Assembly: GCA_017472685.1 (NCBI GenBank)
Contig: JAFUOO010000022.1
Location: 77,483-141,482, forward strand
Direction: 5' to 3'
Origin: Clostridia bacterium
GTDB lineage: Bacteria; Bacillota; Clostridia; UMGS1883
Length of the DNA: 64,000 bases
A model generated the notes under the pieces. That model saw only the letters and a program-made list of their open reading frames with translations, was not told the DNA's origin and made no database searches. A program made the position numbers and the translations under genes. Positions 16,055 through 63,929 of the stretch are shown one piece after another (position 1 is the stretch's first letter; each line of letters begins with the position of its first letter).

Positions 16055-16342
16055 TCAGCGATATAAATTCCTTGCGGAATTTGCGATATTCCCCTTTGGG
16101 GAGCGATATGTTGCAAGCAACGTGATATGTCCTGCGGGACGTTGGGAATTTATATTATATCGAGTTTGTAGGGACCGGCGTCCTCGACGGTCCGAAAAAA
16201 CATATCGAATTTACGAAGTAAATATATCGAGCAAACGAAGTCTGCATATCGACAAACAAGCTGTCTTTTTATATAAAAAGCTTGAAATTCGGGGTTTTGT
16301 GTGCTATAATGGCAAGGATTTGGAAAAAGAAAGGTGAATAAA

Positions 16343-29208: not shown

Positions 29209-30978
29209 TTACTCGTCATCAGAGGAGTCGGTTTCATCTTCATCGGGCTGAATAAGCTCAGGAGCAAGCCAGTCAGATTCAGGACGGCAGATGAGGCGTG
29301 CATTGTTATAAGCCATTTCGTGAGTGAGAATGGTATTAATCTGATAATAAATTTCACCGTCGTCACGGATGCGGCGTTCAACCACCAGTGCTATAGGCTT
29401 ATCATCGTTGTCGTCAAATCGAACGGGGATAAGCCAGGAAAGTGTATTATCTTCAGGATAATAACAAGGAATGGCAGAACGCCAGTTCCAACGCACATTG
29501 CGAAGAGCATTTTCCGTAAATTGTTTTAACCTATCCTTAAGTGACTGAAAATCTTTCCCTAACTCTGCAGAGGCAGAGAGTTCATCATGGTCTTTGATAT
29601 AATCGTAGATTTGTTGTCTCTTGTCTTTAACGGAAATTTCGTCGTTGTCAAGCATTTTTCGTATGGCACCATTATTCCAATAAATTTTGAAGAAGGATAA
29701 CGGCAAACGGTCAAAGCGCTCTTTTATAATATGCTTAAAGTTAATTTCTGTTGTGGGGTTAATCGGCGGCTGCAAAAAGGTGTCTTCATGTTTGCTGAAA
29801 TATACCGGTCTGGACGGAAGATTGGATGAAAAGTGTTCGTTGAATATTTTTCCGTCACCATAGGTTTTACCCGTATCGCTGTCAATAAACGCTATAAATT
29901 TGTATTGATGTGGGAGGTGTAACGGACTGCATTCATTTTTAGCTGAGTCAACCTTTTTGAAAAGTGCATAAATCTCTTTGTATTCTTTATCGGGAAGACC
30001 GGTATTGAACGCTGCATAATTTCCGCTAAAGCATATCTGATTGTTGAAAGCAGCAGAAGTGTTGCCTGAAATATAATTGTTGTAAAGTCGGCAAAACGTG
30101 TAATTAAGATAGTTGAATAAAATGCTGTCTTTCTTTGTGCCTAAAGACCAGTGTTCAGGCAGAGTTTTTGAAGCAAGATTGCCGATTGCGTCGAAAAAGT
30201 TGTCAAAGGATGCCCATTTCTGAAGCCACAGCTTTTTAGGGAACAGCTCAAGCGACGGGTTTTCATATATTAAATGCTGATAATACCAACCAGTACCGCG
30301 TATTCCTTTACGGTAAGAAAATAAAGCATAGACTGTTTTTTCTTTATTTTCTTTGGTATCTGTAAAAGTGAAACCCGTATCGATACAACGCGACGATAAA
30401 TATATTGGATTATTTAGTGTAGCCCCGTCACGATTTATGTATATGGATTTATCCTTGTTTGCATTAACAGTATTATGTATATCCTGAGCCGGGGTGGTTG
30501 TATCACCGCAAAGGGCAACTATATCGCTCTTTAAGTCGTTCCAGTCATCAAAAAGGTCGTCCTTAATCGGAGCTACAAGCTTTTCGCAGTACCATATAGT
30601 TTTGTTGTCTTTATCTTTTACACATAAAAGTTTAAGACAAGCTCCTTCTTTATCAGGAATACCTGTTTTTAACACAAGACGGTTATTGTCAGATGCTATT
30701 TCAGAATCCGAAAGCTTGTAATAGGTTTCTTTAATTGTTTTCAAGAGCTTAGCCTTCTGCTCCGATTCGGATAAGCCTTCAAAAAAACCTTCATGTGCAT
30801 GTTTTTTTGCGTATGCAAATATCATATCATCTTTTAATGTGATGAATTTGTCAAATTCAACTCGGGACGGAGTCGGCGTTATTACTTTATCCTCCTGAAT
30901 CTGAGGAGCGGAGGCTTGCTGACTAACAGTAGCTTTAGATTCGGTTGATTGTCTGAATATCTTTTTTAATAAGTTCAT
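29209..30978 (-). CDS. large hypothetical protein (589 aa) with an acidic C-terminal tail; low GC
   Basis: Long ORF convergent with the GIY-YIG gene. No confident family. Ends ...PDEDETDSSDDE. Confidence 0.5.
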   Translation of the reverse strand: MNLLKKIFRQSTESKATVSQQASAPQIQEDKVITPTPSRVEFDKFITLKDDMIFAYAKKHAHEGFFEGLSESEQKAKLLKTIKETYYKLSDSEIASDNNRLVLKTGIPDKEGACLKLLCVKDKDNKTIWYCEKLVAPIKDDLFDDWNDLKSDIVALCGDTTTPAQDIHNTVNANKDKSIYINRDGATLNNPIYLSSRCIDTGFTFTDTKENKEKTVYALFSYRKGIRGTGWYYQHLIYENPSLELFPKKLWLQKWASFDNFFDAIGNLASKTLPEHWSLGTKKDSILFNYLNYTFCRLYNNYISGNTSAAFNNQICFSGNYAAFNTGLPDKEYKEIYALFKKVDSAKNECSPLHLPHQYKFIAFIDSDTGKTYGDGKIFNEHFSSNLPSRPVYFSKHEDTFLQPPINPTTEINFKHIIKERFDRLPLSFFKIYWNNGAIRKMLDNDEISVKDKRQQIYDYIKDHDELSASAELGKDFQSLKDRLKQFTENALRNVRWNWRSAIPCYYPEDNTLSWLIPVRFDDNDDKPIALVVERRIRDDGEIYYQINTILTHEMAYNNARLICRPESDWLAPELIQPDEDETDSSDDE

Positions 30979-50832: not shown

Positions 50833-52305
50833 ATGTCAAACATGTTGATACTTTCTATTACGAAAATCGGTGATTTACTGACTGAAAAAAGAATAACGAA
50901 AGACGAAAACGGACAACCAATAGATAATATTAATTTAGTCATACCCGAATATCAGCGCCCATATAAGTGGACCGCAAAAAATGTTAATCAGCTGCTGGAT
51001 GATATTATACAGGCAAAGAGTGAGAACAAGGAAGTATACCGCGTCGGAACACTCATTTTACATAAGGATAGAAACCGCGGAGAATACAATGTTGTGGACG
51101 GACAGCAACGAATAACAACCTTTGCATTGCTTCTGAAAGCATTGGGCGTTGGAAATGTTTCATTTCTTGAGCAGAAAATGACAGATAATCCCTATAACAG
51201 ATTTAACATTATCAATAACTATCGCACACTGAAGCGTCGTGTGGATAATTTGGCTGTTCAGAAGGGCGACCTTTGCAATTACATAAAAAACAATTGTGAA
51301 TTGATAGTTGTCATTACCGAAAATATTTCAGAGGCATTCCAATTTTTTGACTCCCAGAATGCACGCGGAAAAAAGCTATACCCACATGACCTCCTGAAAG
51401 CATACCATTTGCGGGAGATGAATGATTTGGATGCGGAGGAAACCGAAAAGATTGTTAAAACGTGGGAGGATTTAGACCAAAAAACACTTGCTGAGCTGTT
51501 TTCTGATTACTTATACCGTTTGAAAGAATGGATAAAGGGAAATAAGTCGGGTGAACTTAATGAGCACAATTATGATATGTTCAAGGGTGTAACGATGCAC
51601 GATAATTTTCCTTACGCACAGTTTTATAAAGGTGCATTTGCATACGCAGACAACATCAACAATTCGCCCATCCCGTTTGTTACGGGAATGCGTAAGCTCA
51701 GCGCTTTTCAGTTAGATACGCCTATTGTTGCCGGAAAACCGTTTTTTGACTATGCAAAACACTATTTTGAGCTTCTGGCGGATATAAGAAATAACGACAA
51801 ATACGAGGGGCATTTTATAAATGATAATAAAATAATGAAAACCTTAAATTTAAGGGAAAATCGCAATGGTGTAGGTAACACAATAGTAAGACGTATGCTT
51901 GACGCTGCCATACTTCTGTATATAGACAGATTCTGCCCTGAAAAGCCCACCGGCACAGATACCGAAATGCTTGACCAATTTGTAGTGTTTGCTTTTGTAT
52001 GGGCATACTCTCTCAGGGCACAATATCAAAATCTTGGTTGGCAAGCCGCTCAGAATTACATTATGGGAAACAATGGCAAAGTAACCAATTCGTTCAATCT
52101 TTATAAAGTCATAACAGAGAGCGATTCGCCCGTTGAACTTTTCAGCACACTTTCTGATAAAATTTTGCCACTGTCATATAATGATTTACCTGCATCCGAT
52201 AAGTACAGAGAAGCGAAAGTAGCAAATATAAACGAAAAAGATAAGAATGATGTTTATCAGAATTATCTTCATTTCTTCGTTGAGCATAATTTTTGGAGGG
52301 GATAA
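50833..52305 (+). CDS. DUF262 (ParB/GmrS-like NTPase) domain protein
   Basis: Hallmark motifs IPEYQRPYKW and DGQQRITT. Very low GC. Confidence 0.7.
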   Translation: MSNMLILSITKIGDLLTEKRITKDENGQPIDNINLVIPEYQRPYKWTAKNVNQLLDDIIQAKSENKEVYRVGTLILHKDRNRGEYNVVDGQQRITTFALLLKALGVGNVSFLEQKMTDNPYNRFNIINNYRTLKRRVDNLAVQKGDLCNYIKNNCELIVVITENISEAFQFFDSQNARGKKLYPHDLLKAYHLREMNDLDAEETEKIVKTWEDLDQKTLAELFSDYLYRLKEWIKGNKSGELNEHNYDMFKGVTMHDNFPYAQFYKGAFAYADNINNSPIPFVTGMRKLSAFQLDTPIVAGKPFFDYAKHYFELLADIRNNDKYEGHFINDNKIMKTLNLRENRNGVGNTIVRRMLDAAILLYIDRFCPEKPTGTDTEMLDQFVVFAFVWAYSLRAQYQNLGWQAAQNYIMGNNGKVTNSFNLYKVITESDSPVELFSTLSDKILPLSYNDLPASDKYREAKVANINEKDKNDVYQNYLHFFVEHNFWRG

Positions 52306-52307
52306 AA

Positions 52308-54359
52308 ATGAAAAATAAAGCATTGCCTCTTAAAGAGATTTCGGTTTCGGAATTGTATAACGGCAGCAACAAAATGATTTTTGAAGTGCCTGTTTATCAA
52401 AGAAATTACGCATGGGAAAAAGATGAAATATCCGCCCTGATCCAGGATGTATACGATGCCTGTATAAAGGGCTCGGATGTGTATTTCATCGGAACTCTCG
52501 TGACTTTTAATAAAGGTGATAATGTTTACGAGGTTATTGATGGTCAGCAGCGACTTACTACAATAAATCTTATTTTAAATGCCTTGCATATAAAGCCGAA
52601 CAACCCTCTCACGTATAAAGCACGAAAAAAATCAAATAACACAATAAAGCACATTCCATCCTTTGACATAGATGAAAAAGATCATGGCATTGTTAATGGC
52701 TTCAAGTATGCTGAAACATCGATAAACGAAAAAATTGCAAGTGATGATTTTGAAGCGTTTAAAACATATTTTCAAAACAATGTACACATCATTCATTACG
52801 AGGTCCCACGTGATATTGATTTGAATCATTATTTTGAGATAATGAATTCCCGCGGCGAACAGCTTGAAAAACACGAAATTGTAAAAGCACGTTTAATAAG
52901 CTATATAAAAAATGATTACGATAAAAGCACATTTAATTTTATATGGGAATGCTGCTCGGAAATGGGTGTATACGTACAGCAAAAATATAAGGAAAAAGAC
53001 GTTTTCGGACCTGATTTGTGTGAACTTATTGTCGATGCGTTTGAGCAGCTGCCTTTCACTAAAAAAGATTCCGAAGAACAGCTTTCCATTAATGCATTGA
53101 TTGAAAGCGAAGCTAAGTACGAATTGAAAAATCCTAACATATCAGATGACAAGCCCGATTCCTTTCAGCCTGTTATTGATTTTCAGAATTTCTTGCTGAT
53201 AGTTCTTAAAATAACAAGAATAACTAATGAGCATAATTTTAATCCCATCAGCTTTAACCTTGACGACAAAGAACTGATTAATGAATTTGAGAAAGTAGCC
53301 TGTGATAATTATGGCGGAAAGGAAAGCTTTGCAAAAAACTTTGCTTACAACTTATTAAAAATAAAATATCTGCTTGATAATTATGTGGTGCATCATTCCA
53401 ATGAGGAAGACACTATCGAAAACAACCCATGGAAGCTGCAGTATTGGCAGTATAATACTGATAAGAAAAAAGGTCCTCTCAGGTCATTGTGTAGTGATGA
53501 AGAGTTGCAACACAAGCTTGTGCAGCTGTTGTCCATGTTTGAGGTGTCATTTACTGCCCGACAAAGAAAAAATTATTTATTTTATTGCCTGCTGTTTTTG
53601 TTTGAAAAATATAATTCCCATACTTACGATGAAGACCTTTTGCCTGAATACGGGAATTTTGTGGAAGCTCTGGCAAAAAAATATTTTTGTGATGTTTATT
53701 TAGTTGAGGATAAACTGAATAATATCAACACGCCCAAGCCGGGCAGCTTTGACGAGGTTGTTTTATGTAATAATAAACTCAATGTGATAGCTGATAATCT
53801 GAACATCCATGTTTTTGAAAAAATTTACGGTGACGGAACTGTAGCCTCGAAAGGTGTACCGTTGTTTATTTTTAACTATCTGGACTATAAACTGTGGGAA
53901 TATTATGCAGAAAATCTGCGCGGTGAAAAACTGAAAGAAAAAAGTCCCGCACGTCGGGAGTTCTTTAACGAACTGGGGTGTAGCGATTTTGGACTTGATG
54001 TTTTTAATCAGTTTTATTTTTCAAGAACAAGGAGGAGCCTGGAGCACTACTATCCTCAGGCAAATATTACGAATTCAACCATGGATGATAATCAGATTAA
54101 TTGTTTGGGTAACTATGCAATGATAGGCAGTGCAATAAACAGCGCCGGTTCAAATTGGAGCCCAAAAACAAAATTAGACTGTTATCTGGACACATCGGGG
54201 AAAATAAAACAGGTTAGCGTAGCTTCGTTAAAGTTTATGATTATGATGCAAAAATGTAAGGATGAAGACAGAAAAGGTGAGAGAAATCCGGGGTGCGAAT
54301 GGATATTTGAGGACATAAAGGAACACCAGAAAAAAATGCTGAAATTTTTTGAAAAGTAA
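52308..54359 (+). CDS. DUF262-DUF1524 (GmrSD-like) protein with C-terminal His-Me-finger nuclease
   Basis: PVYQRNYAW and DGQQRLTT N-terminally. C-terminally SLEHYYPQ...N...GN is a DUF1524/HNH-like motif. ATG with GGAGGGG ribosome-binding site. Confidence 0.7.
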   Translation: MKNKALPLKEISVSELYNGSNKMIFEVPVYQRNYAWEKDEISALIQDVYDACIKGSDVYFIGTLVTFNKGDNVYEVIDGQQRLTTINLILNALHIKPNNPLTYKARKKSNNTIKHIPSFDIDEKDHGIVNGFKYAETSINEKIASDDFEAFKTYFQNNVHIIHYEVPRDIDLNHYFEIMNSRGEQLEKHEIVKARLISYIKNDYDKSTFNFIWECCSEMGVYVQQKYKEKDVFGPDLCELIVDAFEQLPFTKKDSEEQLSINALIESEAKYELKNPNISDDKPDSFQPVIDFQNFLLIVLKITRITNEHNFNPISFNLDDKELINEFEKVACDNYGGKESFAKNFAYNLLKIKYLLDNYVVHHSNEEDTIENNPWKLQYWQYNTDKKKGPLRSLCSDEELQHKLVQLLSMFEVSFTARQRKNYLFYCLLFLFEKYNSHTYDEDLLPEYGNFVEALAKKYFCDVYLVEDKLNNINTPKPGSFDEVVLCNNKLNVIADNLNIHVFEKIYGDGTVASKGVPLFIFNYLDYKLWEYYAENLRGEKLKEKSPARREFFNELGCSDFGLDVFNQFYFSRTRRSLEHYYPQANITNSTMDDNQINCLGNYAMIGSAINSAGSNWSPKTKLDCYLDTSGKIKQVSVASLKFMIMMQKCKDEDRKGERNPGCEWIFEDIKEHQKKMLKFFEK

Positions 54360-54978: not shown

Positions 54979-54999
54979 TGTGGCGGAGAAGGTGGGATT
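54972..54999 (-). repeat. attachment-site-like direct repeat copy 1 (tRNA 3'-end core plus flank)
   Basis: tttgttttgtggcggagaaggtgggatt is repeated at 55074-55102. Confidence 0.6.
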
Positions 55000-55073: not shown

Positions 55074-55130
55074 TTGTTTTTTGTGGCGGAGAAGGTGGGA
55101 TTCGAACCCACGTCCCTCGGGGGGCATCAT
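55074..55130 (-). other. tRNA 3'-end fragment (T-arm, acceptor 3' strand, G discriminator, CCA) = attachment-site direct repeat copy 2; no complete cloverleaf
   Basis: The minus-strand sequence reads ...GGGACGTGGGTTCGAATCCCACCTTCTCCGCCA. The T-loop TTCGAAT is canonical. No matching 5' acceptor strand or D-arm could be found upstream on that strand. Confidence 0.55.
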
Positions 55131-55367
55131 GATTTCGAGTGATATACACTCTGACTTTCTTAATCGTTTCTACAATCTGATATAACTCTCTTGAAAGAGC
55201 TGAAAACCTGGAAAAATAAGGGTTTTTGGCTCTTTTTTGTGTGCTTAAGACTTGATTTTTGTGGCTTTTGAAAAATGTGATTTTAACACAAAAAATTCAC
55301 TTTGGGCAAAACTAGGGCAAAACAGATTTATACTTAAAAACCATTAAAACGTATGAAAGGGCACATT

Positions 55368-55643
55368 ATGAAAACGAAATGGAAGGAATTTTGCGAAGCT
55401 TGGCTTGCTGACGAGCCTGATATATTAACCGTGCTTGAAGTCAAACGTATCACAGGCTATTGCAAAAGCTCGGTGCAAGGCTGGATTGACAGAGGACTTG
55501 TTGTTGCCTTTCGGGCAAAACGGTCAAATAAAATTCCCAGGTCATCGCTGCTCAAATTTATGGCAAGTGATTATTTTCGCAATATGCACGTTAAATCAAA
55601 AAAGCTGAAGGAAAAATTAAGTGAGTTTGAAAGGATGGATTGA
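55368..55643 (+). CDS. excisionase/HTH-type DNA-binding protein
   Basis: VKRITGYCKSSVQGWIDRGLV resembles an HTH_17/Xis-like helix-turn-helix. Confidence 0.45.
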   Translation: MKTKWKEFCEAWLADEPDILTVLEVKRITGYCKSSVQGWIDRGLVVAFRAKRSNKIPRSSLLKFMASDYFRNMHVKSKKLKEKLSEFERMD

Positions 55644-55646
55644 TTT

Positions 55647-55997
55647 ATGAGGGTTGATTATATCAAATACGGAAGGGGCTATTTGCCCACTGCAGCACCG
55701 AAGGAGAGCTATGATATTTGCAGATTCGGACACGCATATTTAAGCTACTTAAAGCAAAATAAACGAGTATTATATTCACGGTTATTGATTACCGGAAGGC
55801 TTTTAAAGCATGTTGCACACGTGGATAAACTGGCCCGGCAGATGTACGATGATATCATTCGTGACAGAATTGGAGATGCACCGCCCAGAGAAAACCAGAA
55901 GGAATGGGACGAGTTTATAAATAGACTTCGCAATAGTGCCGAGAAAATCGTGTATAAGGAAATTCTTTTCAAAGATGAAAGAATCAGAGAGGTGTAA
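55647..55997 (+). CDS. hypothetical protein (116 aa)
   Basis: ORF within the island operon. Confidence 0.35.
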   Translation: MRVDYIKYGRGYLPTAAPKESYDICRFGHAYLSYLKQNKRVLYSRLLITGRLLKHVAHVDKLARQMYDDIIRDRIGDAPPRENQKEWDEFINRLRNSAEKIVYKEILFKDERIREV

Positions 55998-56004
55998 GAA
56001 AACC

Positions 56005-56814
56005 ATGAGAATAGCATACCCAATCGGATTTACACAAATACCCAATTACATACTACGCAGCAAGGTGTTAAAGCCCTTGCAAAAGGTCGTGCTTGCCGTT
56101 TTGTGTAGCTATGCCAATGATGAAAATCTCGCATTCCCGTCTTACCAGACTATTGCAAATGACAGCGGAATCAGCAGAAGAAAAGCCATTGAGATTATTG
56201 GTGACTTGGAAAGGCTTGGTTGCATCAGAAAGATTGCACAGAAAAGCACTAAGGGCGATAATACCGCCAATGATTATGTAGTTCTGATAGGTGGTGCAGA
56301 TTTTGCACTACCCGGTGAATCTCCTGCACTACCTGGTGAATATGGTGCACCACCCTGTGGTGAATCTCCTGCACCACGTGGTGAACGTCGTGCACCCAAT
56401 CAATATATAGATAATAATATTAATATTTATTTTAATAATAACCATCAATCCATCACGGCTGCCGAGATGGATGAGATGGAAGAACAAATCAAAGAAAATA
56501 TTGATTATACGATTTTGAAACAGAGCTATACAGACGGTATGCTTGAAGAAATTGTCAGCGTAATGGTAGAAGCTACTTGCGCTACTGCTACGACGATTCG
56601 TATTGGAGACAACGAATTTCCGCGAGAGGTTGTTAAAGCCCAAATGCTGAAGCTCGGCAGCGAGCATGTGGAGTATGTAATCGATTGCATCAAGAAAAAC
56701 ACTACCAAGGTACGAAACATAAAAGCCTATATGCTAAGGTGCATTTACAACGCTCCGCAGACCATAGCCCACTACTACACCGCAGAGGTGAATCACGATT
56801 TGTACGGCGGATAG
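56005..56814 (+). CDS. replication initiator / replisome organiser (N-terminal HTH, C-terminal DnaD-like domain) with internal Pro/Gly-rich tandem repeat
   Basis: The N-terminus (FPSYQTIANDSGISRRKAIEII) is a Rep-type winged helix. The C-terminus (KAQMLKLGSEHVEYVIDCIKKN...KAYMLRCI) is DnaD-like. DNA repeats lie at about 56290-56400. Confidence 0.55.
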   Translation: MRIAYPIGFTQIPNYILRSKVLKPLQKVVLAVLCSYANDENLAFPSYQTIANDSGISRRKAIEIIGDLERLGCIRKIAQKSTKGDNTANDYVVLIGGADFALPGESPALPGEYGAPPCGESPAPRGERRAPNQYIDNNINIYFNNNHQSITAAEMDEMEEQIKENIDYTILKQSYTDGMLEEIVSVMVEATCATATTIRIGDNEFPREVVKAQMLKLGSEHVEYVIDCIKKNTTKVRNIKAYMLRCIYNAPQTIAHYYTAEVNHDLYGG

Positions 56815-56925
56815 CTCAGAGCTGTAAAACGATAGTTTTTGTATTAGCAAGCACGGCATTTGTATAGACAAAAGCCGCTTGTTAGGGATAATCCCTAATA
56901 CCCATTTGTTATTGGAGGTGGAACT

Positions 56926-57243
56926 ATGAGATACAAGCAAAAGCAATTAAATTTTTATGTTTCTGATAAGGTGTGGGAAAAACTTCAAAAATTGAAAAAG
57001 AAATCAGGCTTAACTATGACAGCGATAATATCAAAACTTATCATGGGTTACGAAATTCATCCTCTTAAAACTGAAGAGCTTTTTAGAATATACAAAGAGC
57101 TGAACCATATAGGCAATAACATAAATCAAATTGCTCATATCGCCAATTTGGAAAAACATGTGTCTAAAGAAAAAATTAGCGAGGTAGAAAAGCTTATGGA
57201 CCAAATATGGGAATGTGTCTTAAGCTACGATGAGAAGAAATGA
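56926..57243 (+). CDS. MobC-like mobilisation accessory protein (no cognate relaxase present)
   Basis: About 105 aa with YKELNHIGNNINQIAHIAN, typical of MobC / Bacterial_mobilisation. Confidence 0.55.
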   Translation: MRYKQKQLNFYVSDKVWEKLQKLKKKSGLTMTAIISKLIMGYEIHPLKTEELFRIYKELNHIGNNINQIAHIANLEKHVSKEKISEVEKLMDQIWECVLSYDEKK

Positions 57244-57391
57244 TTATGAGCTTTGAAAAAACTGTATTACGAAAATCTAAATTCTGGCGAAAAACAGATT
57301 GGATGAGCGTATTTATAACCTTGAAAAAAGTTGACACAGAAAAAGAAATGTATATAATAAATTACAGAAGCTTTTTATTTTCCAAGGAGTT

Positions 57392-57604
57392 ATGATTATG
57401 AGTAAAGAAGGAAAGTTTTTAGTTTTTTGTATTGAACAATATAAGTCGGCCAAAAATTTAACAGGAAAACAGGTTGCAGAATTGTTCAGGAAGTATGAAG
57501 TATATGAATATATTTTTAGTTGCTACGGAGCGTTGCATACTACAGGAACAAACTATATTATTGCAGATATAGACTTATTTATCGAGGCACGACAAGCAGG
57601 CTGA
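57392..57604 (+). CDS. small hypothetical protein (DUF3791-like)
   Basis: 70-aa ORF with a GGAG ribosome-binding site. Confidence 0.4.
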   Translation: MIMSKEGKFLVFCIEQYKSAKNLTGKQVAELFRKYEVYEYIFSCYGALHTTGTNYIIADIDLFIEARQAG

Positions 57605-57799
57605 TAAAATTTAATTATGATAAACAATGAGGTTATGCACGTGAGAGCATAACCTCGTTTTTGTTGGTTTAAGCTTATAGGACTTTATGCTGATGATAAC
57701 GCGAAAGCCAATTAGTCAATCGTGAATTACTCATTTATACTTGACTAAATTGCTTTGTATGTGCTATACTATAGATAACCAAAAATGGAGGTCATACAT

Positions 57800-59194
57800 A
57801 TGTTTATTGGCAGAGAACGCGAGCTTAATGCTCTGAATAAACTTTATGAATCGAATAAATTTGAATTTGCTGTTATCTATGGCAGACGTCGTGTTGGTAA
57901 AACTGCGCTCATAAATGAGTTCATAGGCGATAAAAAAGCTATTTACTTTATGGGCGTTGAAAGCAACGCAAAGCAGAATCTTGAAAACTTTTCAAAAAGT
58001 ATTATGGAGTTTGCAAGCGGTATTGAAACGGAGTCCTCTTTCCTTTCTTTTCAGGCTGCATTAGAGTATGTTTTTAAGCTTGCAGAGAACGAAAGAATAA
58101 TCCTTGCTATTGACGAATACCCTTACGTGGCTCGTTCATCAAAAAGCCTTGCATCTACCTTACAGCTTTTAATTGATAAATATAAAGATAACTCAAAGTT
58201 GATGCTCATTCTCTGCGGTTCCTCTATGTCATACATGGAAGACCACGTGCTTGCATACAAAGCACCCTTATACGGTCGCAGAACGGCTCAAATGAAGCTT
58301 TTGCCATTTGACTTTGAAGAAACTTGCCGATATTTCAAAAACCTTTCTGACGAGGATAAGGCGCTTATTTACGGTATAGCAGGCGGTACGCCTCAGTACC
58401 TTTTGCAGATGGATGACAATTTAAGCGTTGAGGATAATATCAAAAACACATACTTGAATCCGATTTCATTCCTTTACGAAGAACCGACTAACCTTTTAAA
58501 ACAAGAGGTTCGTGAGCCTGCAATTTATACAGCTATCATTACAGCGATTGCAACAGGTTCATCAAGAATGTCGGAGATTTCAAGCAAGGTTGGCGAAGAT
58601 ACTAATGTTTGCACAAATTACATTAAGAACCTTATGAACCTTGGTATTGTGCAAAAGGAAACTCCCTACGGAGAAAAGGCTTCTCGTAAGTCGATTTACT
58701 CTATTGAGGATAATATGTTCCGTTTCTGGTATCGCTTTGTGCTTGATAATAATTCAATCATTGCCCGTGGTGCTGCTGATCTGGTTTATAAGAGAATTGA
58801 GCCTCAGCTTTCAGACTATATGGGTAAGGTTTTTGAAGAAATCTGTAAGCAGTACCTTTGGAAACAGCTTCTTTCAGGCAACTGCCCGGTAGAGTTCACT
58901 TCCCTTGGTCGTTGGTGGGGCAACGATCCTACAGAAAAATGCCAGGCAGAAATCGATATTATGGGCGAACAGGACAAAAACACAGCCCTCTTTGCAGAAT
59001 GCAAATGGACAAATGAAAAGGTTGACCTTGGCGTTTTAGAAACACTTGTAAAACGCGGCAATCTGTTCCCGTATAAAACAAAGCATTATTACCTGTTCTC
59101 AAAATCCGGATTTTCAAAGGGATGTGTGGATAAAGCGAATGAAATGGGTAATGTGAGTTTGGTAAATTATCGAGATATGGTGGAGGAAAAATAA
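57800..59194 (+). CDS. AAA-type ATPase of the COG1672 family with DUF234 C-terminal domain
   Basis: MFIGRERELNAL...YGRRRVGKTAL Walker A, and a conserved C-terminus. ATG at 57800. Confidence 0.6.
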   Translation: MFIGRERELNALNKLYESNKFEFAVIYGRRRVGKTALINEFIGDKKAIYFMGVESNAKQNLENFSKSIMEFASGIETESSFLSFQAALEYVFKLAENERIILAIDEYPYVARSSKSLASTLQLLIDKYKDNSKLMLILCGSSMSYMEDHVLAYKAPLYGRRTAQMKLLPFDFEETCRYFKNLSDEDKALIYGIAGGTPQYLLQMDDNLSVEDNIKNTYLNPISFLYEEPTNLLKQEVREPAIYTAIITAIATGSSRMSEISSKVGEDTNVCTNYIKNLMNLGIVQKETPYGEKASRKSIYSIEDNMFRFWYRFVLDNNSIIARGAADLVYKRIEPQLSDYMGKVFEEICKQYLWKQLLSGNCPVEFTSLGRWWGNDPTEKCQAEIDIMGEQDKNTALFAECKWTNEKVDLGVLETLVKRGNLFPYKTKHYYLFSKSGFSKGCVDKANEMGNVSLVNYRDMVEEK

Positions 59195-59279
59195 GATGGG
59201 ATAGTTAAGCTATAACTAATGGATTTGGAGATTTCTTTAAGATAATCATTTAAAAAAATAAACAAAAGGAGAATGAATT

Positions 59280-61310
59280 ATGCGTTTAATTAAAGCACGA
59301 GTACAAGGATATCGAAGTATAATTGATACAGGGTATTTTGAAGTGGAAAATGACAAAACAATTTTGGTTGGACCAAACGAAGCGGGAAAAACCGCAATTT
59401 TGCAAGCGTTACAAAAACTTAATCCTCCGGAAGGGGTTGCGTTATTTGATCCTTTGAGAGATTATCCTCGTTCTAAATATGATGAGGATATTAAAAACGG
59501 CAATATTGATTCTAGCACATTTACTGTAGTAGAAGGTCATTTTGCTTTGGAAGATGACGATAGAGATGAATTGCCAGAAGCCTACAAGGATGTTATTTAT
59601 GTCTGCGGACGATACTTAGATAATACAATGTGGCATCGACTGGATAACGCACCATCAAAACTTATTTTTTCTGAAATTGAAAAGGATTTATTGAAGATTT
59701 GTCAACATTACAAAAATACAAGCGTGGCAAATGGAGACCCAGAAGCCAAGCAGGTAGCTATACAAACTGGGTATGATACTGCAGTTTTATATCTTCGCAG
59801 GACAAGTGTTATCTCTAGCGTTAAGGCAAAACAAATCACTACTTGGTTGAAAAACAATTTAGTATATCTTGAAGATGATAATGCAACAGAAGAAAAGAGG
59901 TATGAAAAACTTCTTGAACTATTGGAAAAACCTATAGAACGCAATGATGTTCTTACAATTTGCGAAGAGAGATTACCTAAATTTATACTTTTTAGTAATT
60001 ATTTTAGAATTAAGCCAGTGTTGCATTTGAAGAAGTTAGCAGAACGCATCGACAAAAAAATGTTGGATGATGAACAGTATGACTACGGAAATATATGTTT
60101 GCTTAAATTTTTAGGGTTTACTCCCAAAGAACTTGCAGAAGCAGGCGAAACTTCAAAATATGATCTGAATAAACCGGATCAGTACGAGCAATATCGAGCG
60201 CAATTAGACAAAAGAGATTATCAACTAAATGCTGCTACTATTAGGCTTACAGATGCAATTTGTGAAATTTGGAATCCAAAAAAAGATGGGCGAGACGCAA
60301 ATAAGCTTAGAATTAAGGTTGATGGACAATATCTCAAGGTTGTTGTTGAAGACGATTTGGGTGTAGAAGTAGAACTTGATCAGCGTTCTGAAGGTTTCCA
60401 ATGGATGGTATCATTCTATGTTGTGTTCTTCGCAGAGGCATCTGATAAACATAAAAATGCAATTTTATTGTTAGATGAACCGGGTCAAAGTTTACATGCT
60501 CTTAAACAAGCAGAGTTTATTGAAACATTGACAAAATTGAGTAAGAAAAACCAAACATTGTATACTACACATTCCCCATTCCTTGTTGGGACAGATGAAC
60601 TTGATAAGGTCCGTGTTGTTGAGATGACAGATAGAACAACCGGTACAAAAGTAAATTTGTCGTTAACGGCTAGCGATAGTGGTGCAATGCTTCCATTACA
60701 AGAAGCGTTAGGCTACGATTTGGCGCAAAGTTTATTCTTCCATAAAAAGAACCTCGTTCTTGAAGGATTGACTGACATGTGGTATATAGAAAGTTTATCA
60801 GAGTTGTTTAAGGCCGATGGAAAAACTGGGATTAACGAACAAATTGCATTAATTCCTGCTAACTGCGCGAGCAAGGTAGTATATTTTGCAACAATTCTGC
60901 ACGCACAAAATCTTAAAATTTCGGCACTTTTGGATTCGGATGCAGAGGGAGAATTGGCGGCGAAACAAGAGACATTAATTAACGCAGTAGGTGCTAAGCG
61001 TATCCTAAGGACAAAGGATGTTTACAGTGGACAAGTATCTGCTGTTGAAATTGAGGATATACTTAGGGATACATTGTTGAATATCGCAAAAGATCAATGC
61101 GGTTGGGATGCTATAGCTGTTGCTAAAACACAAGCAAAACGTCCAATTGTAGATGTTTTAAAGAGTGTAGCAAAAGCTGATTTTTCTAAGTATAAGTTAT
61201 CTAAAGCTTTTATAAGATGGTCTCGGGATCACGGATTAAACGATTTACAACCTCATGAAATTGCACAGGCAGGACAACTTATAGAAAAGATTAACAAATC
61301 TCTTCAGTAA
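59280..61310 (+). CDS. OLD-family nuclease: ABC-type ATPase fused to a TOPRIM domain (stand-alone, class-1-like)
   Basis: N-terminal Walker A GPNEAGKT, and an ABC signature/Walker B region (LLLDEPGQSLH). C-terminal TOPRIM (LVLEGLTDMWYIE...DSDAEG). Confidence 0.7.
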   Translation: MRLIKARVQGYRSIIDTGYFEVENDKTILVGPNEAGKTAILQALQKLNPPEGVALFDPLRDYPRSKYDEDIKNGNIDSSTFTVVEGHFALEDDDRDELPEAYKDVIYVCGRYLDNTMWHRLDNAPSKLIFSEIEKDLLKICQHYKNTSVANGDPEAKQVAIQTGYDTAVLYLRRTSVISSVKAKQITTWLKNNLVYLEDDNATEEKRYEKLLELLEKPIERNDVLTICEERLPKFILFSNYFRIKPVLHLKKLAERIDKKMLDDEQYDYGNICLLKFLGFTPKELAEAGETSKYDLNKPDQYEQYRAQLDKRDYQLNAATIRLTDAICEIWNPKKDGRDANKLRIKVDGQYLKVVVEDDLGVEVELDQRSEGFQWMVSFYVVFFAEASDKHKNAILLLDEPGQSLHALKQAEFIETLTKLSKKNQTLYTTHSPFLVGTDELDKVRVVEMTDRTTGTKVNLSLTASDSGAMLPLQEALGYDLAQSLFFHKKNLVLEGLTDMWYIESLSELFKADGKTGINEQIALIPANCASKVVYFATILHAQNLKISALLDSDAEGELAAKQETLINAVGAKRILRTKDVYSGQVSAVEIEDILRDTLLNIAKDQCGWDAIAVAKTQAKRPIVDVLKSVAKADFSKYKLSKAFIRWSRDHGLNDLQPHEIAQAGQLIEKINKSLQ

Positions 61311-61312
61311 AC

Positions 61313-61355
61313 AAAAATAGAAGGTAGGTGTGTTTTACCTACCTTCTATTTTTGT
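61313..61355. terminator. strong bidirectional terminator
   Basis: aaaaatagaaggtaggtgtgttttacctaccttctattttt. Confidence 0.85.
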
Positions 61356-61363
61356 TTACTATA

Positions 61364-62305
61364 CTATCTGAATTCATCAAGCCAGGCTTGGAATTGCTCG
61401 AGGGTGATTTCACCGTTATAGCATTTTTTTCGTTCTGCACGGGCGAGCTTACCGAATTCTTTGAATTCTTCCTTTGTGATGAGCTTTGCTCTCTGACGGG
61501 AATCCATACGACGATAAGCCGTGATGTAGGCTTTGTGGATTGCATCATCTTTATGAACAATATCAAAGGTTTTAATTGCGCCGATTTCGCTACAAGGCTT
61601 TGTTTCACCTGACATAATTCTTTCGCAGTATTCGCTGTTTACACGACCACGGGGGATAAAATATTCACCGCAGCATTTACAGGGCTTAAGCTTAATCTTA
61701 TTTACAAGCATAAGCATTATATCAAAGCGGATTACATCGTCTATTGTTTCAAGGGGATAGACTGTGATGCCATTATCTGCATCAAATTGAGTTACAAAAT
61801 CAAAATTAAACAGCTTGCTCTCTTCACGGTGCTTTGTAAAGCGCTGAGGAAGAGAGCCTTCTTTATCTTTAATAATTTCATCTAACAATGGTTTGATTTC
61901 TGTCTTTTTCTTATGGATGCTTACGAGTATCGCATTAAGAAATTTTTCAAAATACTTTTTAGAGCCTTCTTCGGGTGCAATAAAATCACTTCCAAGGAAG
62001 GTTATAAATTCACTGCTACCGTTAGCAAGATAATCAATGAAAGAAGCAATATATATGGTCAAATAGCTGTTCTTGTCAACATAAGCAGCAGCTTTCTTGA
62101 CTGCCTGTTCTATGTCTCCGCCACCGAATGCAATAATTATATCAATGAAAATCAGTCTGAACATTTCGGTGTCAATCCAAAGAAAGTCAAAAAGAGCCTT
62201 GCCGGAGGTTGTGCCGACAACGGTTTCTTCTATCTGATCAAATTTTAACTTATATGAGGTCTGGTTGCCATTGGCAAAGCCAAAGATTTTTGTATTTTCT
62301 TTCAT
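61364..62305 (-). CDS. hypothetical protein with Cys cluster (CKCCG...C...C)
   Basis: The ORF extends to 62380. The preferred start is MKENTK at 62305, with a GAGGA ribosome-binding site. Confidence 0.4.
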   Translation of the reverse strand: MKENTKIFGFANGNQTSYKLKFDQIEETVVGTTSGKALFDFLWIDTEMFRLIFIDIIIAFGGGDIEQAVKKAAAYVDKNSYLTIYIASFIDYLANGSSEFITFLGSDFIAPEEGSKKYFEKFLNAILVSIHKKKTEIKPLLDEIIKDKEGSLPQRFTKHREESKLFNFDFVTQFDADNGITVYPLETIDDVIRFDIMLMLVNKIKLKPCKCCGEYFIPRGRVNSEYCERIMSGETKPCSEIGAIKTFDIVHKDDAIHKAYITAYRRMDSRQRAKLITKEEFKEFGKLARAERKKCYNGEITLEQFQAWLDEFR

Positions 62306-62529
62306 AATACATCCTCTTGATAAACGATTATAAATAATTCCTGAAAGTATTATATCGCGTCGTTTTTGAAAAGTCAACACAAATGCATAAAACGATTATT
62401 TGAAAACAAATTTTGAATAAACTTGACAAGCGTTGGGCGGTATGGTACACTATGAACGACGATAAGAAAAAATAAGTATAATAATCGCCAGAAACGCAAA
62501 CTAAGAATAACTAATGAGGAGGTGAAATC

Positions 62530-62724
62530 ATGAATGTATTAAACTATACACAAAAATTAAAGCATTATCCTGATGTGCTGACTACCGATCAGGCGGCTGA
62601 AATTCTTAATGTCAGCAAGAAAACGATTTATATGGCAATTAAAAACAAGGAACTACACGCTGTAAAAATTGGACGAGAATACAGGATAGTAAAAGCAAAG
62701 CTTGTTGAAATGCTGGTATCGTAA
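62530..62724 (+). CDS. excisionase-family HTH protein
   Basis: LTTDQAAEILNVSKKTIYMAIKNKEL is a classic Xis/MerR-type HTH. It lies directly upstream of int. Confidence 0.6.
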   Translation: MNVLNYTQKLKHYPDVLTTDQAAEILNVSKKTIYMAIKNKELHAVKIGREYRIVKAKLVEMLVS

Positions 62725-62732
62725 GAGGGTGA

Positions 62733-63929
62733 GTGTTTTTGAAAAAAGAAATTAAGGTTTCCGGACATCTGGAGGTTATCAAGGGCGTTTACCATATGAA
62801 GCTATCTTGGGTGTCTGCAGAGGGTAAGCGACAGAGAAAATCAAAAAGCACGAATTTACCTGAACGAGGAAACAAAAAGCGAGCGCATGATATGCTGATT
62901 GATTTTCAGCGTGAGCAAGAGGCAGAGCTTATAGCTAACGGAAACGGAATAAAGGATATACTTTTCACCGATTATTTGAAGCAATGGCTTGAAAAGACCA
63001 AACTACAAATCCGCCTTACTACCTACAGTGGTTATCATGATAATATACACGGGGTAATAATTCCATACTTTGAGCCCATGAAGCTTAAGCTTAGAGAGGT
63101 TACTCCGAAGCATATTCAGGATTTTTATACGAATCAAAGAAAGCGTGTAAAAGGAACAACGGTCAAAAGCTATCATGCAAATATTCATAAGGCATTTAAG
63201 GATGCAAGGAAGCTACAGCTTATAGACTCAAACCCTATGGAATGTGTAGATCCACCCAAAAAGGAACCCTATCATGGTCAGACCTACACCGTTGAGGAGG
63301 CACAAAAAATACTTGCATTAGTAAGTGATACTATTTATGAAATACCTATAACCGTGATGCTGTTTTACGGTCTTCGTCGTGAGGAGGCAATCGGGCTTAA
63401 GTGGCAGAACATTGATTTTGAAAGCAATACTTTTTTGATTGCACATACTGTAACCGAAACAAGTATCGATGGACGCCTGCAGGTGATTAAAGAGGATTTG
63501 ACTAAAAACAACAGCAGCTACCGTTCACTTCCGTTGGTGCCTCCTGTTAGGGAGCTGCTTTTAGAAAAGAAGCAAAGCATTCGGGAATACAGAAAGCTTT
63601 TCAGAAAAGGTTATTGCTTCAAGGATTCGGATTATGTCTGTGTGAATGAGCTTGGTGAGTTAATCAGACCGAGAACCCTGTCGGATAACTTCAAAAGAAT
63701 TATTCGCAAGAACAGGCTCAGAACTTTAAGATTATACGATTGCAGACATACTGCGGCGAGCATAATGTTGAAAAACGGTGTCAATATGAAGCAGATTCAA
63801 ATGATACTGGGACACAGTGATTTTGCGACAACTGCAAATATTTATTCTCACCTTGATTATTCCGATAAAATATCAGCAGCAGAAAAAATGAGAAATATAA
63901 TCTACGGTGAAGATAATGAATCGGTTTAG
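62733..63929 (+). CDS. tyrosine site-specific integrase
   Basis: N-terminal SAM-like domain. The catalytic domain has R (GLRREEA), HxxR (CRHTAAS) and a C-terminal Y (ANIYSHLDY). The exact start is uncertain (GTG/TTG). Confidence 0.85.
   Translation: MFLKKEIKVSGHLEVIKGVYHMKLSWVSAEGKRQRKSKSTNLPERGNKKRAHDMLIDFQREQEAELIANGNGIKDILFTDYLKQWLEKTKLQIRLTTYSGYHDNIHGVIIPYFEPMKLKLREVTPKHIQDFYTNQRKRVKGTTVKSYHANIHKAFKDARKLQLIDSNPMECVDPPKKEPYHGQTYTVEEAQKILALVSDTIYEIPITVMLFYGLRREEAIGLKWQNIDFESNTFLIAHTVTETSIDGRLQVIKEDLTKNNSSYRSLPLVPPVRELLLEKKQSIREYRKLFRKGYCFKDSDYVCVNELGELIRPRTLSDNFKRIIRKNRLRTLRLYDCRHTAASIMLKNGVNMKQIQMILGHSDFATTANIYSHLDYSDKISAAEKMRNIIYGEDNESV

What the first reader, a model, noticed from the sequence alone, without database searches (positions are those of the whole stretch)
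57800..61310. Stand-alone OLD-family ATPase-TOPRIM nuclease with an upstream DUF234-type ATPase as cargo of the island
The 676-aa protein has an N-terminal ABC-type ATPase (GPNEAGKT ... LLLDEPGQSLH) and a C-terminal TOPRIM (DxD-containing LLDSDAEGE). No UvrD/PcrA-type helicase partner is adjacent, so it is class-1-like rather than Gabija-like. Its neighbour is a COG1672/DUF234 ATPase. The two together could form an uncharacterised two-ATPase anti-phage module carried by the element.
Basis: partly seen in the sequence, partly recalled or inferred. Interest (0 to 1): 0.55.

Follow-up and report, generated by a model that had tools for sequence, protein, structure and literature searches.

The report
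Stand-alone OLD nuclease, incidental ATPase neighbour
A small mobile element inserted in a tRNA-Ser gene of a gut Clostridia genome carries two separate, already-catalogued kinds of anti-phage gene side by side (a solitary OLD ATPase-TOPRIM nuclease and a DUF234/PDC-S27 ATPase-nuclease), and their pairing is a local accident of cassette shuffling, not a new two-gene system.

Summary

No helicase, reverse transcriptase or separate AriB gene is nearby, so it is Class 1 by context. The upstream 464-aa protein (57800-59194) is an ATPase_2 + DUF234 protein matching PADLOC's single-gene candidate PDC-S27 (1.6e-66).

Both are cargo of a ~9-kb integrative element bounded by a tRNA-Ser direct repeat. 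The proposed two-ATPase module is not supported:
- Of 138 distinct OLD relatives with flanks, only this element has DUF234 adjacent.
- Its nearest element relative has a methylase cassette between the two genes.
- OLD homologues 91-92% identical, and six of seven DUF234 contexts, lack the partner.
- DNA homology to other contexts stops at each gene's ends.

Verdict: a new member of known kinds, of modest interest. Minor novelty: this large, uncharacterised OLD clade is longer than studied Class 1 enzymes and has a C-terminal helical domain with a conserved lysine.

The parts
54981..54999 (-). Short remnant of the tRNA-Ser 3' end (19-mer TGGCGGAGAAGGTGGGATT), probably an older att scar
55084..55140 (-). 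attL: displaced 3' part of tRNA-Ser(CGA). It is a ~57-nt direct repeat (2 mismatches) of the intact tRNA that lies just beyond the window end
55353..55643 (+). HTH_17 DNA-binding protein of the element backbone
55647..55997 (+). TnpV-family protein (backbone)
55936..56814 (+). HTH_36 + DUF6017 protein, replication-initiator-like (backbone)
56926..57243 (+). MobC/NikA-like relaxosome accessory protein; no relaxase follows it in this element
57392..57604 (+). DUF3791 small protein
57626..57659 (+). Terminator-like hairpin that closes the backbone operon
57710..57770 (+). Left edge of the DUF234 cassette: conserved promoter-like region with inverted repeat TTAGTCAA...TTGACTAA overlapping the -35
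57800..59194 (+). ATPase_2 + wHTH + DUF234 (PD-(D/E)xK) protein, 464 aa from the ATG at 57800; matches PADLOC candidate PDC-S27
59280..61310 (+). OLD-family ABC ATPase-TOPRIM nuclease, 676 aa
59370..59393 (+). Walker A (G31-K37-T38), invariant in 57 of 57 family members
59652..60284 (+). Large helical insert in the ATPase (about residues 125-335), at the position of the OLD dimerisation domain
   Evidence: position compared with Ts OLD as described in PMC7049728
60465..60572 (+). Walker B LLLD399-E400 through H-loop H431
60735..61067 (+). TOPRIM domain with E495, D499, D552, D554, E590, E592
61068..61307 (+). C-terminal helical domain carrying conserved K637
61309..61357 (.). Perfect 21-bp hairpin between the convergent OLD and DUF6076 genes (bidirectional terminator)
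   Evidence: read directly from the sequence
61364..62380 (-). DUF6076 protein (backbone, conserved with L023)
62530..62724 (+). HTH_17 excisionase-like protein
62733..63929 (+). Tyrosine integrase

Best explanation
The 9-kb stretch from 55.1 kb to just past the window end is a small integrative, formerly mobilisable element inserted in tRNA-Ser(CGA). Between its replication/mobilisation module and its DUF6076-Xis-integrase module it has a cargo slot holding two independent single-gene defence cassettes.

Cassette 1 (57710-59199) has its own conserved promoter. It encodes an ATPase_2/wHTH/DUF234 protein with a PD-(D/E)xK nuclease motif, the PDC-S27 candidate.

Cassette 2 (about 59217-61311) encodes a solitary (Class 1 by context) OLD nuclease.

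Inferred mechanism for the OLD protein, from Ts OLD, Vc OLD and P2 OLD:
- It dimerises through the helical insert in its Rad50/SMC-like ABC ATPase.
- ATP binding and hydrolysis (K37, D399-E400, H431) control the enzyme.
- The TOPRIM domain cuts nucleic acid by two-metal catalysis (E495, D552, D554 as metal A; D499, E590, E592 as metal B; K637 as the likely transition-state lysine).
- The target is phage or host DNA (nicking or exonuclease) or tRNA anticodon stems. Either way phage replication stops.

Shown here: domain identity, intact catalytic residues, the solitary context and the cassette boundaries. Inferred: oligomeric state, substrate, trigger and the anti-phage role. In this element the two genes are probably co-transcribed (85-nt gap, no terminator), but that is a consequence of cassette placement, not a functional partnership.
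For: OLD identity:
- Pfam, PADLOC and PDB hits.
- Profile against 6p74 at E=4.6e-23, versus GajA about 5e-9 and AriA about 3e-9.
- Catalytic residues are invariant or nearly so in 57 diverse relatives.
- The C-terminal part alone hits PADLOC Old best and no AriB model.

Solitary nature:
- 11 GTDB genomes with 69-84% homologues have varied neighbours and no DUF234.
- In 160 further metagenomic and viral loci, 0 DUF234-like ORFs by phmmer.
- A census of 137+7 flanking proteins has integrases and recombinases as the commonest, with no UvrD helicase among the listed families and no ATPase_2.
- L023 has MTase+S between the two genes. L024-32, L201 and L202 lack DUF234.

DUF234 independence:
- PDC-S27 at 1.6e-66.
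- Described as a single-gene ATPase + PD-(D/E)xK candidate (PMC12988326).
- Contexts without OLD.

Other:
- Cassette borders.
- Element borders.
- Class 1 OLD defence activity and mechanisms: PMC7049728, PMC12392090, PMC12445682.
Against: No experiment exists on this clade, so the anti-phage role, substrate and trigger are extrapolated from proteins only about 15-18% identical to it.

The protein differs from characterised Class 1 enzymes. It is 676 aa against 528 aa for Ts OLD, with a larger ATPase insert and an 80-aa C-terminal helical domain.

In this element there is no terminator and no convincing promoter between the two genes, so functional coupling here cannot be strictly excluded.

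One other OLD context (L029-32) has a different AAA_14/DUF4143 ATPase downstream. This could hint at a looser affinity for such ATPases, though those are among the commonest defence-island genes.
Confidence: 0.8

Rival explanations
1. The DUF234 ATPase and the OLD nuclease form a dedicated two-ATPase anti-phage system. One would sense and the other execute.
For: The genes are adjacent, on the same strand, 85 nt apart with no terminator, and bracketed by terminators at 57626 and 61309. Both families are defence-associated.
Against: The pairing is found only in this element, out of 138 distinct OLD groups. It is split by an RM cassette in L023. It is absent from 91-92% identical OLD homologues and from 6 of 7 DUF234 contexts. 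Homology breaks exactly between the genes. Each protein has its own ATPase and its own nuclease.
Confidence: 0.05
2. The OLD gene is a promoter-less add-on cassette. It docks at the 3' end of other defence operons (RM, DUF262-HNH, PDC-S27) and acts as a co-expressed second-line effector for whichever system lies upstream.
For: In 7 of 11 informative close contexts a same-strand gene ends 100 nt or less upstream of OLD: DUF234, S subunits, DUF262-HNH and unknowns. Conserved homology starts only 24-63 nt before the ATG. No good promoter match lies in the gap.
Against: The upstream genes are heterogeneous and are complete systems in their own right. Other contexts have 186-590-nt gaps or divergent neighbours. 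Across the wider family, neighbour orientation and spacing look random. Co-transcription in defence islands is common without any functional coupling.
Confidence: 0.12
3. A decayed multi-gene OLD system (Gabija, retron Eco8-type or PARIS) that has lost its partner.
For: PADLOC GajA, AriA and retron ATPase-Toprim models give hits. The C-terminal helical domain is reminiscent of Class 2.
Against: No helicase, RT, msr/msd RNA or AriB was found in the element, or beside the 138 sampled relatives among the families the census lists. The best profile match is Class 1 Ts OLD by 14 orders of magnitude. The family is large and uniformly solitary.
Confidence: 0.03

Closest known systems
Class 1 OLD family nucleases (Thermus scotoductus OLD, PDB 6P74; P2 Old; Vibrio cholerae Vc OLD; E. 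coli YbjD/OldB)
   Same: [quoted passage not shown] Single-gene context with no conserved partner. Carried on a mobile element. Best profile hit (E=4.6e-23) and best Foldseek hit.
   Different: About 90-150 aa longer. It has a much larger helical insert (about 210 aa) and an extra C-terminal helical domain of about 80 aa with conserved K637, whereas Ts OLD uses R487 from a loop and lacks that domain. Only about 14-18% identity. It sits inside defence islands next to RM, GmrSD and AbiE genes, whereas the 2023 review described Class 1 genes as not proximal to other defence genes.
Class 2 OLD / Gabija GajA (with GajB helicase)
   Different: No UvrD/PcrA/Rep-like gene downstream here, or among the listed families in the census of 138 relatives. 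Profile similarity is far weaker (about 5e-9).
PARIS (AriA + AriB), Class 4
   Different: ATPase and TOPRIM are fused in one chain. The TOPRIM part hits Old and GajA models, not AriB. There is no separate AriB gene.
PADLOC candidate PDC-S27 (ATPase_2 + DUF234 / COG1672)
   Same: The upstream gene matches the PDC-S27 model at 1.6e-66 over nearly its full length. It has the same ATPase + PD-(D/E)xK build described for PDC-S27.
   Different: None of note. PDC-S27 itself has no experimental validation.
Defence-cargo hotspots of integrative mobile elements (e.g. P2/P4 hotspots, SXT ICE hotspot 5). This comparison rests on general knowledge and was not tested here.
   Same: A fixed backbone (Int, Xis, DUF6076, Rep-like, MobC) with a slot where defence cassettes are exchanged: window DUF234+OLD; L023 DUF234+MTase/S+OLD; L015 DUF234+type I RM.
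   Different: A different element family in gut Clostridia, targeting tRNA-Ser. The relaxase is missing in this copy.

Membership tests
OLD family nuclease | N-terminal ABC-type ATPase with Walker A, Walker B and H-loop | tested here: met
OLD family nuclease | C-terminal TOPRIM domain with conserved Glu and DxD plus metal B ligands | tested here: met
OLD family nuclease | Helical dimerisation domain inserted in the ATPase | tested here: inconclusive
   The AF2 model shows long helices between residues 131 and 331 inside the ATPase fold. Dimerisation itself cannot be tested with these tools.
Class 1 OLD (context definition) | Single gene with no conserved partner gene | tested here: met
   Neighbours are heterogeneous in 138 distinct relatives.
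Class 1 OLD (structural traits of Ts OLD) | Shorter than Class 2, with no C-terminal helical domain | tested here: not met
   676 aa (family median 679). Helices 596-674 follow the TOPRIM, with K637 conserved in 47/57. This trait is descriptive of Ts OLD and is not part of the context-based class definition.
Class 2 OLD / Gabija | [quoted passage not shown] | tested here: not met
   The downstream gene is a convergent DUF6076. No helicase family appears among the families listed for the 144 flanking proteins of relatives; single-member families are only partly listed.
Class 3 OLD / retron I-B | Adjacent reverse transcriptase and msr/msd ncRNA | tested here: not met
   No RT domain in the element's ORFs. 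Rfam gathering scan found only Gut-1 at 16 kb.
Class 4 OLD / PARIS | Separate AriA ATPase and AriB TOPRIM proteins (or a fusion with an AriB-type TOPRIM) | tested here: not met
   Single chain. The C-terminal 237 aa hit PADLOC Old (9.7e-7) and GajA only, with no AriB.
PDC-S27 (upstream gene) | Match to the PADLOC PDC-S27 profile; ATPase fused to a PD-(D/E)xK domain | tested here: met
   PDLC04984 at 1.6e-66 over residues 6-434. ATPase_2 + DUF234. Motifs in 469-aa ORF numbering: GRRRVGKT at 33, D110-E111, D391, E405-x-K407. The description of PDC-S27 is in PMC12988326.
PDC-S27 (upstream gene) | Demonstrated anti-phage activity | not testable with these tools
Proposed DUF234-OLD two-gene system | Conserved co-occurrence and adjacency across lineages | tested here: not met
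   Adjacent only in the window element. Split in L023. Absent elsewhere (DUF234 side).
Integrative mobilisable element | Integrase, flanking att direct repeats at a tRNA, mobilisation genes | tested here: met
   Integrase and Xis. ~57-nt tRNA-Ser repeat. MobC/NikA is present, but the relaxase found in the related backbone L015 is absent here, so mobilisation may be defective.

The most novel reading that the evidence does not exclude
This roughly 680-aa clade (783 clusters at 50% identity with E<=1e-30) may be a distinct, unstudied sub-class of OLD nucleases. It is solitary like Class 1, but it has a Class-2-like C-terminal helical domain bearing the catalytic lysine and an enlarged dimerisation insert. 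It may travel as a promoter-less cassette that attaches behind other defence operons (RM, DUF262-HNH, PDC-S27) and works as a co-expressed back-up effector. If so, the DUF234-OLD juxtaposition here would be one instance of a general 'piggy-back' arrangement.
Probability: 0.12. Interest if true: 0.5.

Novelty: new member of a known kind. Interest (0 to 1): 0.2.

Why it matters
It removes a tempting false lead, a 'two-ATPase system' that is only cassette juxtaposition. It also identifies a very abundant, highly conserved OLD clade of gut Clostridia mobile elements and phages that no one has characterised. Few Class 1 OLD enzymes have been studied (P2, Ts, Vc, YbjD), and they differ in substrate (DNA nicking versus tRNA anticodon-stem cleavage). 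A further, structurally divergent clade with a confident model and mapped catalytic residues is therefore a reasonable target for biochemistry. The locus also shows how single defence genes are swapped as discrete cassettes in a small tRNA-Ser element.

Tried and rejected
1. The first AlphaFold run, with 26 close homologues (72-92% identical), gave an unusable model (pLDDT 54.8). It was replaced by a run with 57 diverse representatives (pLDDT 92.8).
2. Single-sequence phmmer against PDB gave only marginal OLD and PtuA hits. The narrow-alignment profile was little better. The diverse profile was needed.
3. A text search for 'DUF234' by word start returned T6SS papers about DUF2345. The whole-word search gave only the 2012 PD-(D/E)xK survey, which I did not read.
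4. The Pfam census on 145 neighbours exceeded the residue limit. It was redone without the 7 largest proteins, which were scanned separately.
6. Fused PARIS was considered and rejected: there is no AriB-type hit.
7. Retron association was considered and rejected: there is no RT or ncRNA.
8. A promoter between the two genes was looked for, and none was convincing.
9. The middle insert (residues 48-350) has no PADLOC match.
Full report
**Observation**

Two same-strand ORFs lie where the finding says: 59280-61310 (676 aa) and 57785-59194. The second most likely starts at the ATG at 57800, behind a conserved GGAGG. That gives 464 aa, as in gene calls on the identical contig L001 and in homologues of 461-465 aa. 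The quoted motifs are present at residues 31-38, 396-406 and 550-558.

**The 676-aa protein is an OLD-family nuclease**

- Pfam gives AAA_15 (3.5e-21) and AAA_21. OLD-like_TOPRIM scores 23.0 bits, just under its 23.2-bit cut-off.
- PADLOC ranks Old first (3.6e-24), then AriA and GajA models.
- The single-sequence TOPRIM signal was marginal, so I built a diverse family alignment from the representative search. That search found 6983 clusters at E<=1e-3 and 783 at E<=1e-30, with typical length 633-714 aa.
- The family profile hits the Class 1 Thermus scotoductus OLD structure 6P74 at E=4.6e-23. The hit runs from Walker B through the TOPRIM Glu and DxD. GajA scores about 5e-9 and AriA about 3e-9.
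- 36 of 57 family members pass PF20469 individually.
- An AlphaFold model built on that alignment is confident (pLDDT 92.8, pTM 0.82). Its best Foldseek PDB hit is 6P74.

Using the Ts OLD catalytic map (PMC7049728) and the profile alignment, the catalytic residues correspond as follows, with conservation:

| This protein | Ts OLD | Conservation in 57 relatives |
|---|---|---|
| E495 | E377 | 57/57 |
| D499 | D381 | 55/57 |
| D552 | D431 | 55/57 |
| D554 | D433 | 48/57 |
| E590-x-E592 | S478-x-E480 | E592 57/57 |

The E590-x-E592 pairing is my inference: the profile alignment ends before this region. ATPase residues K37, D399, E400 and H431 are likewise conserved.

**Which class**

No UvrD-like helicase, reverse transcriptase or AriB gene occurs in the element, in the sampled large ORFs of the window, or downstream in L001. 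Rfam finds no retron RNA. The C-terminal 237 residues hit PADLOC Old and GajA, but no AriB model. By the context-based scheme (PMC10568477, PMC12392090) this is Class 1.

It departs from the studied Class 1 enzymes in three ways:
- It is about 150 aa longer than Ts OLD.
- Its helical insert in the ATPase is about 210 aa.
- About 80 aa of helices follow the TOPRIM, with K637 conserved in 47/57. This recalls the Class 2 C-terminal domain that supplies K562 in Bp OLD. I could not superpose coordinates, so this equivalence is inferred.

**The upstream protein**

- It has ATPase_2 (1.9e-31) plus DUF234 (2.8e-28), with a weak Mrr_cat signal at the C-terminus.
- It matches PADLOC PDC-S27 at 1.6e-66 over almost its full length.
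- It is distantly related to the archaeal Walker ATPases 2QEN and 2FNA.
- In 469-aa ORF numbering it has Walker A GRRRVGKT (33-40), Walker B D110-E111, and a classical PD-(D/E)xK pattern D391 ... E405-C-K407.
- PDC-S27 is described as a single-gene candidate with an ATPase fused to a PD-(D/E)xK domain. It is abundant in archaea and bacteria and not yet validated (PMC12988326).

**The island**

A 19-mer of a tRNA 3' end occurs twice, at 54981 and 55084. The second copy extends to a ~57-nt imperfect repeat of the tRNA-Ser(CGA) gene. That gene lies just after the integrase in the longer identical contig L001, at a position equivalent to window ~64018-64106.

The element is therefore about 9 kb. 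Its gene order is HTH_17, TnpV, HTH_36/DUF6017 (replication-initiator-like), MobC/NikA, DUF3791, a terminator, DUF234 ATPase, OLD, a hairpin, DUF6076 (minus strand), Xis-like HTH_17, and integrase. A related backbone (L015, 80% nt identity over 55077-56903) keeps a relaxase that this copy lacks.

**Test of the two-ATPase module: the OLD side**

- Eleven GTDB genomes with 69-84% identical homologues show no DUF234 ATPase next to OLD.
- Their upstream genes are IIB-like methylase-nuclease + S, Mrr, C5 methylases, GmrSD, EcoRI-type methylase + DUF262-HNH, DUF6273, or unknowns.
- The closest element relative (L023: OLD 89%, same DUF6076-Xis-Int backbone) has DUF234, then N6 methylase, S subunit, then OLD.
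- Homologues at 91-92% identity (L201, L202) have Flg_new and Fic neighbours.
- Homologues at 81% identity sit in a different element, after AbiEii, two methylases and DUF262-HNH.
- Homologues at 75% identity are followed by an AAA_14/DUF4143 ATPase and type III RM.
- In 160 more loci from metagenomes and viral contigs (25-74% identity), phmmer finds no DUF234-like ORF within the flanks.
- Over 138 distinct (90% identity) OLD groups, neighbour size, strand and spacing are heterogeneous. A Pfam census of 144 flanking proteins is led by integrases (8) and serine recombinases (5). No UvrD-type helicase appears among the families listed, though single-member families are only partly listed. No ATPase_2 family appears either, and the phmmer scan found no DUF234-like ORF in these flanks.

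**Test of the two-ATPase module: the DUF234 side**

Homologues at 90-95% identity occur without OLD in six of seven contexts. They are often beside RM modules or a Tn916-type integrase.

**Test of the two-ATPase module: nucleotide level**

- Homology of the DUF234 gene to four other contexts begins at 57710/57711 and ends at 59161-59199.
- Homology of the OLD gene to five contexts begins at 59217-59256 and ends at 61311-61314.
- In L023 the 3.2-kb RM cassette sits in the 17-nt junction between the two.

The two genes are therefore separate cassettes. In this element they are probably co-transcribed, because there is no terminator and no convincing promoter in the 85-nt gap. Nothing else links them.

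**Mechanism**

This is inferred from relatives. Ts OLD is a dimeric ATPase whose TOPRIM uses two metals to nick and degrade DNA (PMC7049728). Vc OLD is a DNA nickase that blocks phage replication and needs both ATPase and nuclease residues in vivo (PMC12392090). P2 OLD, activated by ATP hydrolysis, cuts tRNA anticodon stems (PMC12445682).

With every corresponding residue intact, the window protein most likely acts the same way: as an ATP-controlled nuclease that halts phage infection. Which substrate it cuts and what triggers it cannot be told from sequence. The DUF234 protein most likely acts independently, as an NTPase-regulated PD-(D/E)xK nuclease.

**Novelty and score**

Both genes belong to catalogued kinds, and the pairing is incidental. 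This is a new member of a known kind. The residual interest lies in the size, conservation and structural peculiarities of this uncharacterised OLD clade, and in its frequent position directly behind other defence genes: 7 of 11 informative close contexts have a same-strand gene 100 nt or less upstream. Interest 0.2.

Noticed in passing
window 57710-57770; L023, L015, L017, L021 equivalents: The DUF234 cassette carries a conserved promoter-like region with an 8-nt inverted repeat (TTAGTCAA ... TTGACTAA) overlapping the -35. It is identical in five contexts and may be an operator, since the protein itself has a wHTH.
   Followed up: partly
L015, L017, L021, L023, L196 (DUF234 homologues at 90-95% identity): The DUF234/PDC-S27 ATPase lies next to restriction-modification modules in 5 of 7 distinct contexts. 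In three it sits directly upstream (2-15 nt gaps in L021 and L023) of an N6_Mtase methylase (HSDR_N_2 fusion in L021 and L196) plus an S subunit; in L196 a DUF5655 gene lies between. This linkage may be more real than the one with OLD.
   Followed up: partly
window 56926-57604 versus L015 3366-5038: The element keeps MobC/NikA but lacks the PF03432 relaxase present in the related backbone, so this copy may no longer be mobilisable.
   Followed up: partly
window 54981-54999 and 55084-55140: There are two copies of the tRNA-Ser 3' end about 100 nt apart. The shorter one looks like a scar of an earlier integration or excision at the same site.
   Followed up: partly
window 50833-54359: Two tandem DUF262/GmrSD_N proteins (490 and 688 aa; the first also has DUF7834) hit PADLOC HEC-06, Orf5 and SspE models. 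They lie just outside the tRNA-Ser element, next to a flavin reductase gene, and form a separate defence locus.
   Followed up: partly
L009, L012, L024-L028: A block of EcoRI-type methylase(s) + DUF262-HNH + OLD recurs in different mobile elements, with OLD 77-84% identical to the window protein. It is the most repeated neighbour arrangement seen for this OLD clade.
   Followed up: partly
window 61309-61357: A perfect 21-bp-stem hairpin lies between the convergent OLD and DUF6076 genes. It starts inside the OLD stop codon and was missed by the consensus terminator scan.
   Followed up: no
window 16056-16133: Gut-1 RNA (RF01706, 52.2 bits against a gathering score of 50). This fits a gut Clostridia origin for the window.
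   Followed up: no
window 29209-30978 (-): A 589-aa DUF3825 protein on the minus strand in a lower-GC patch. It was not examined further.
   Followed up: no
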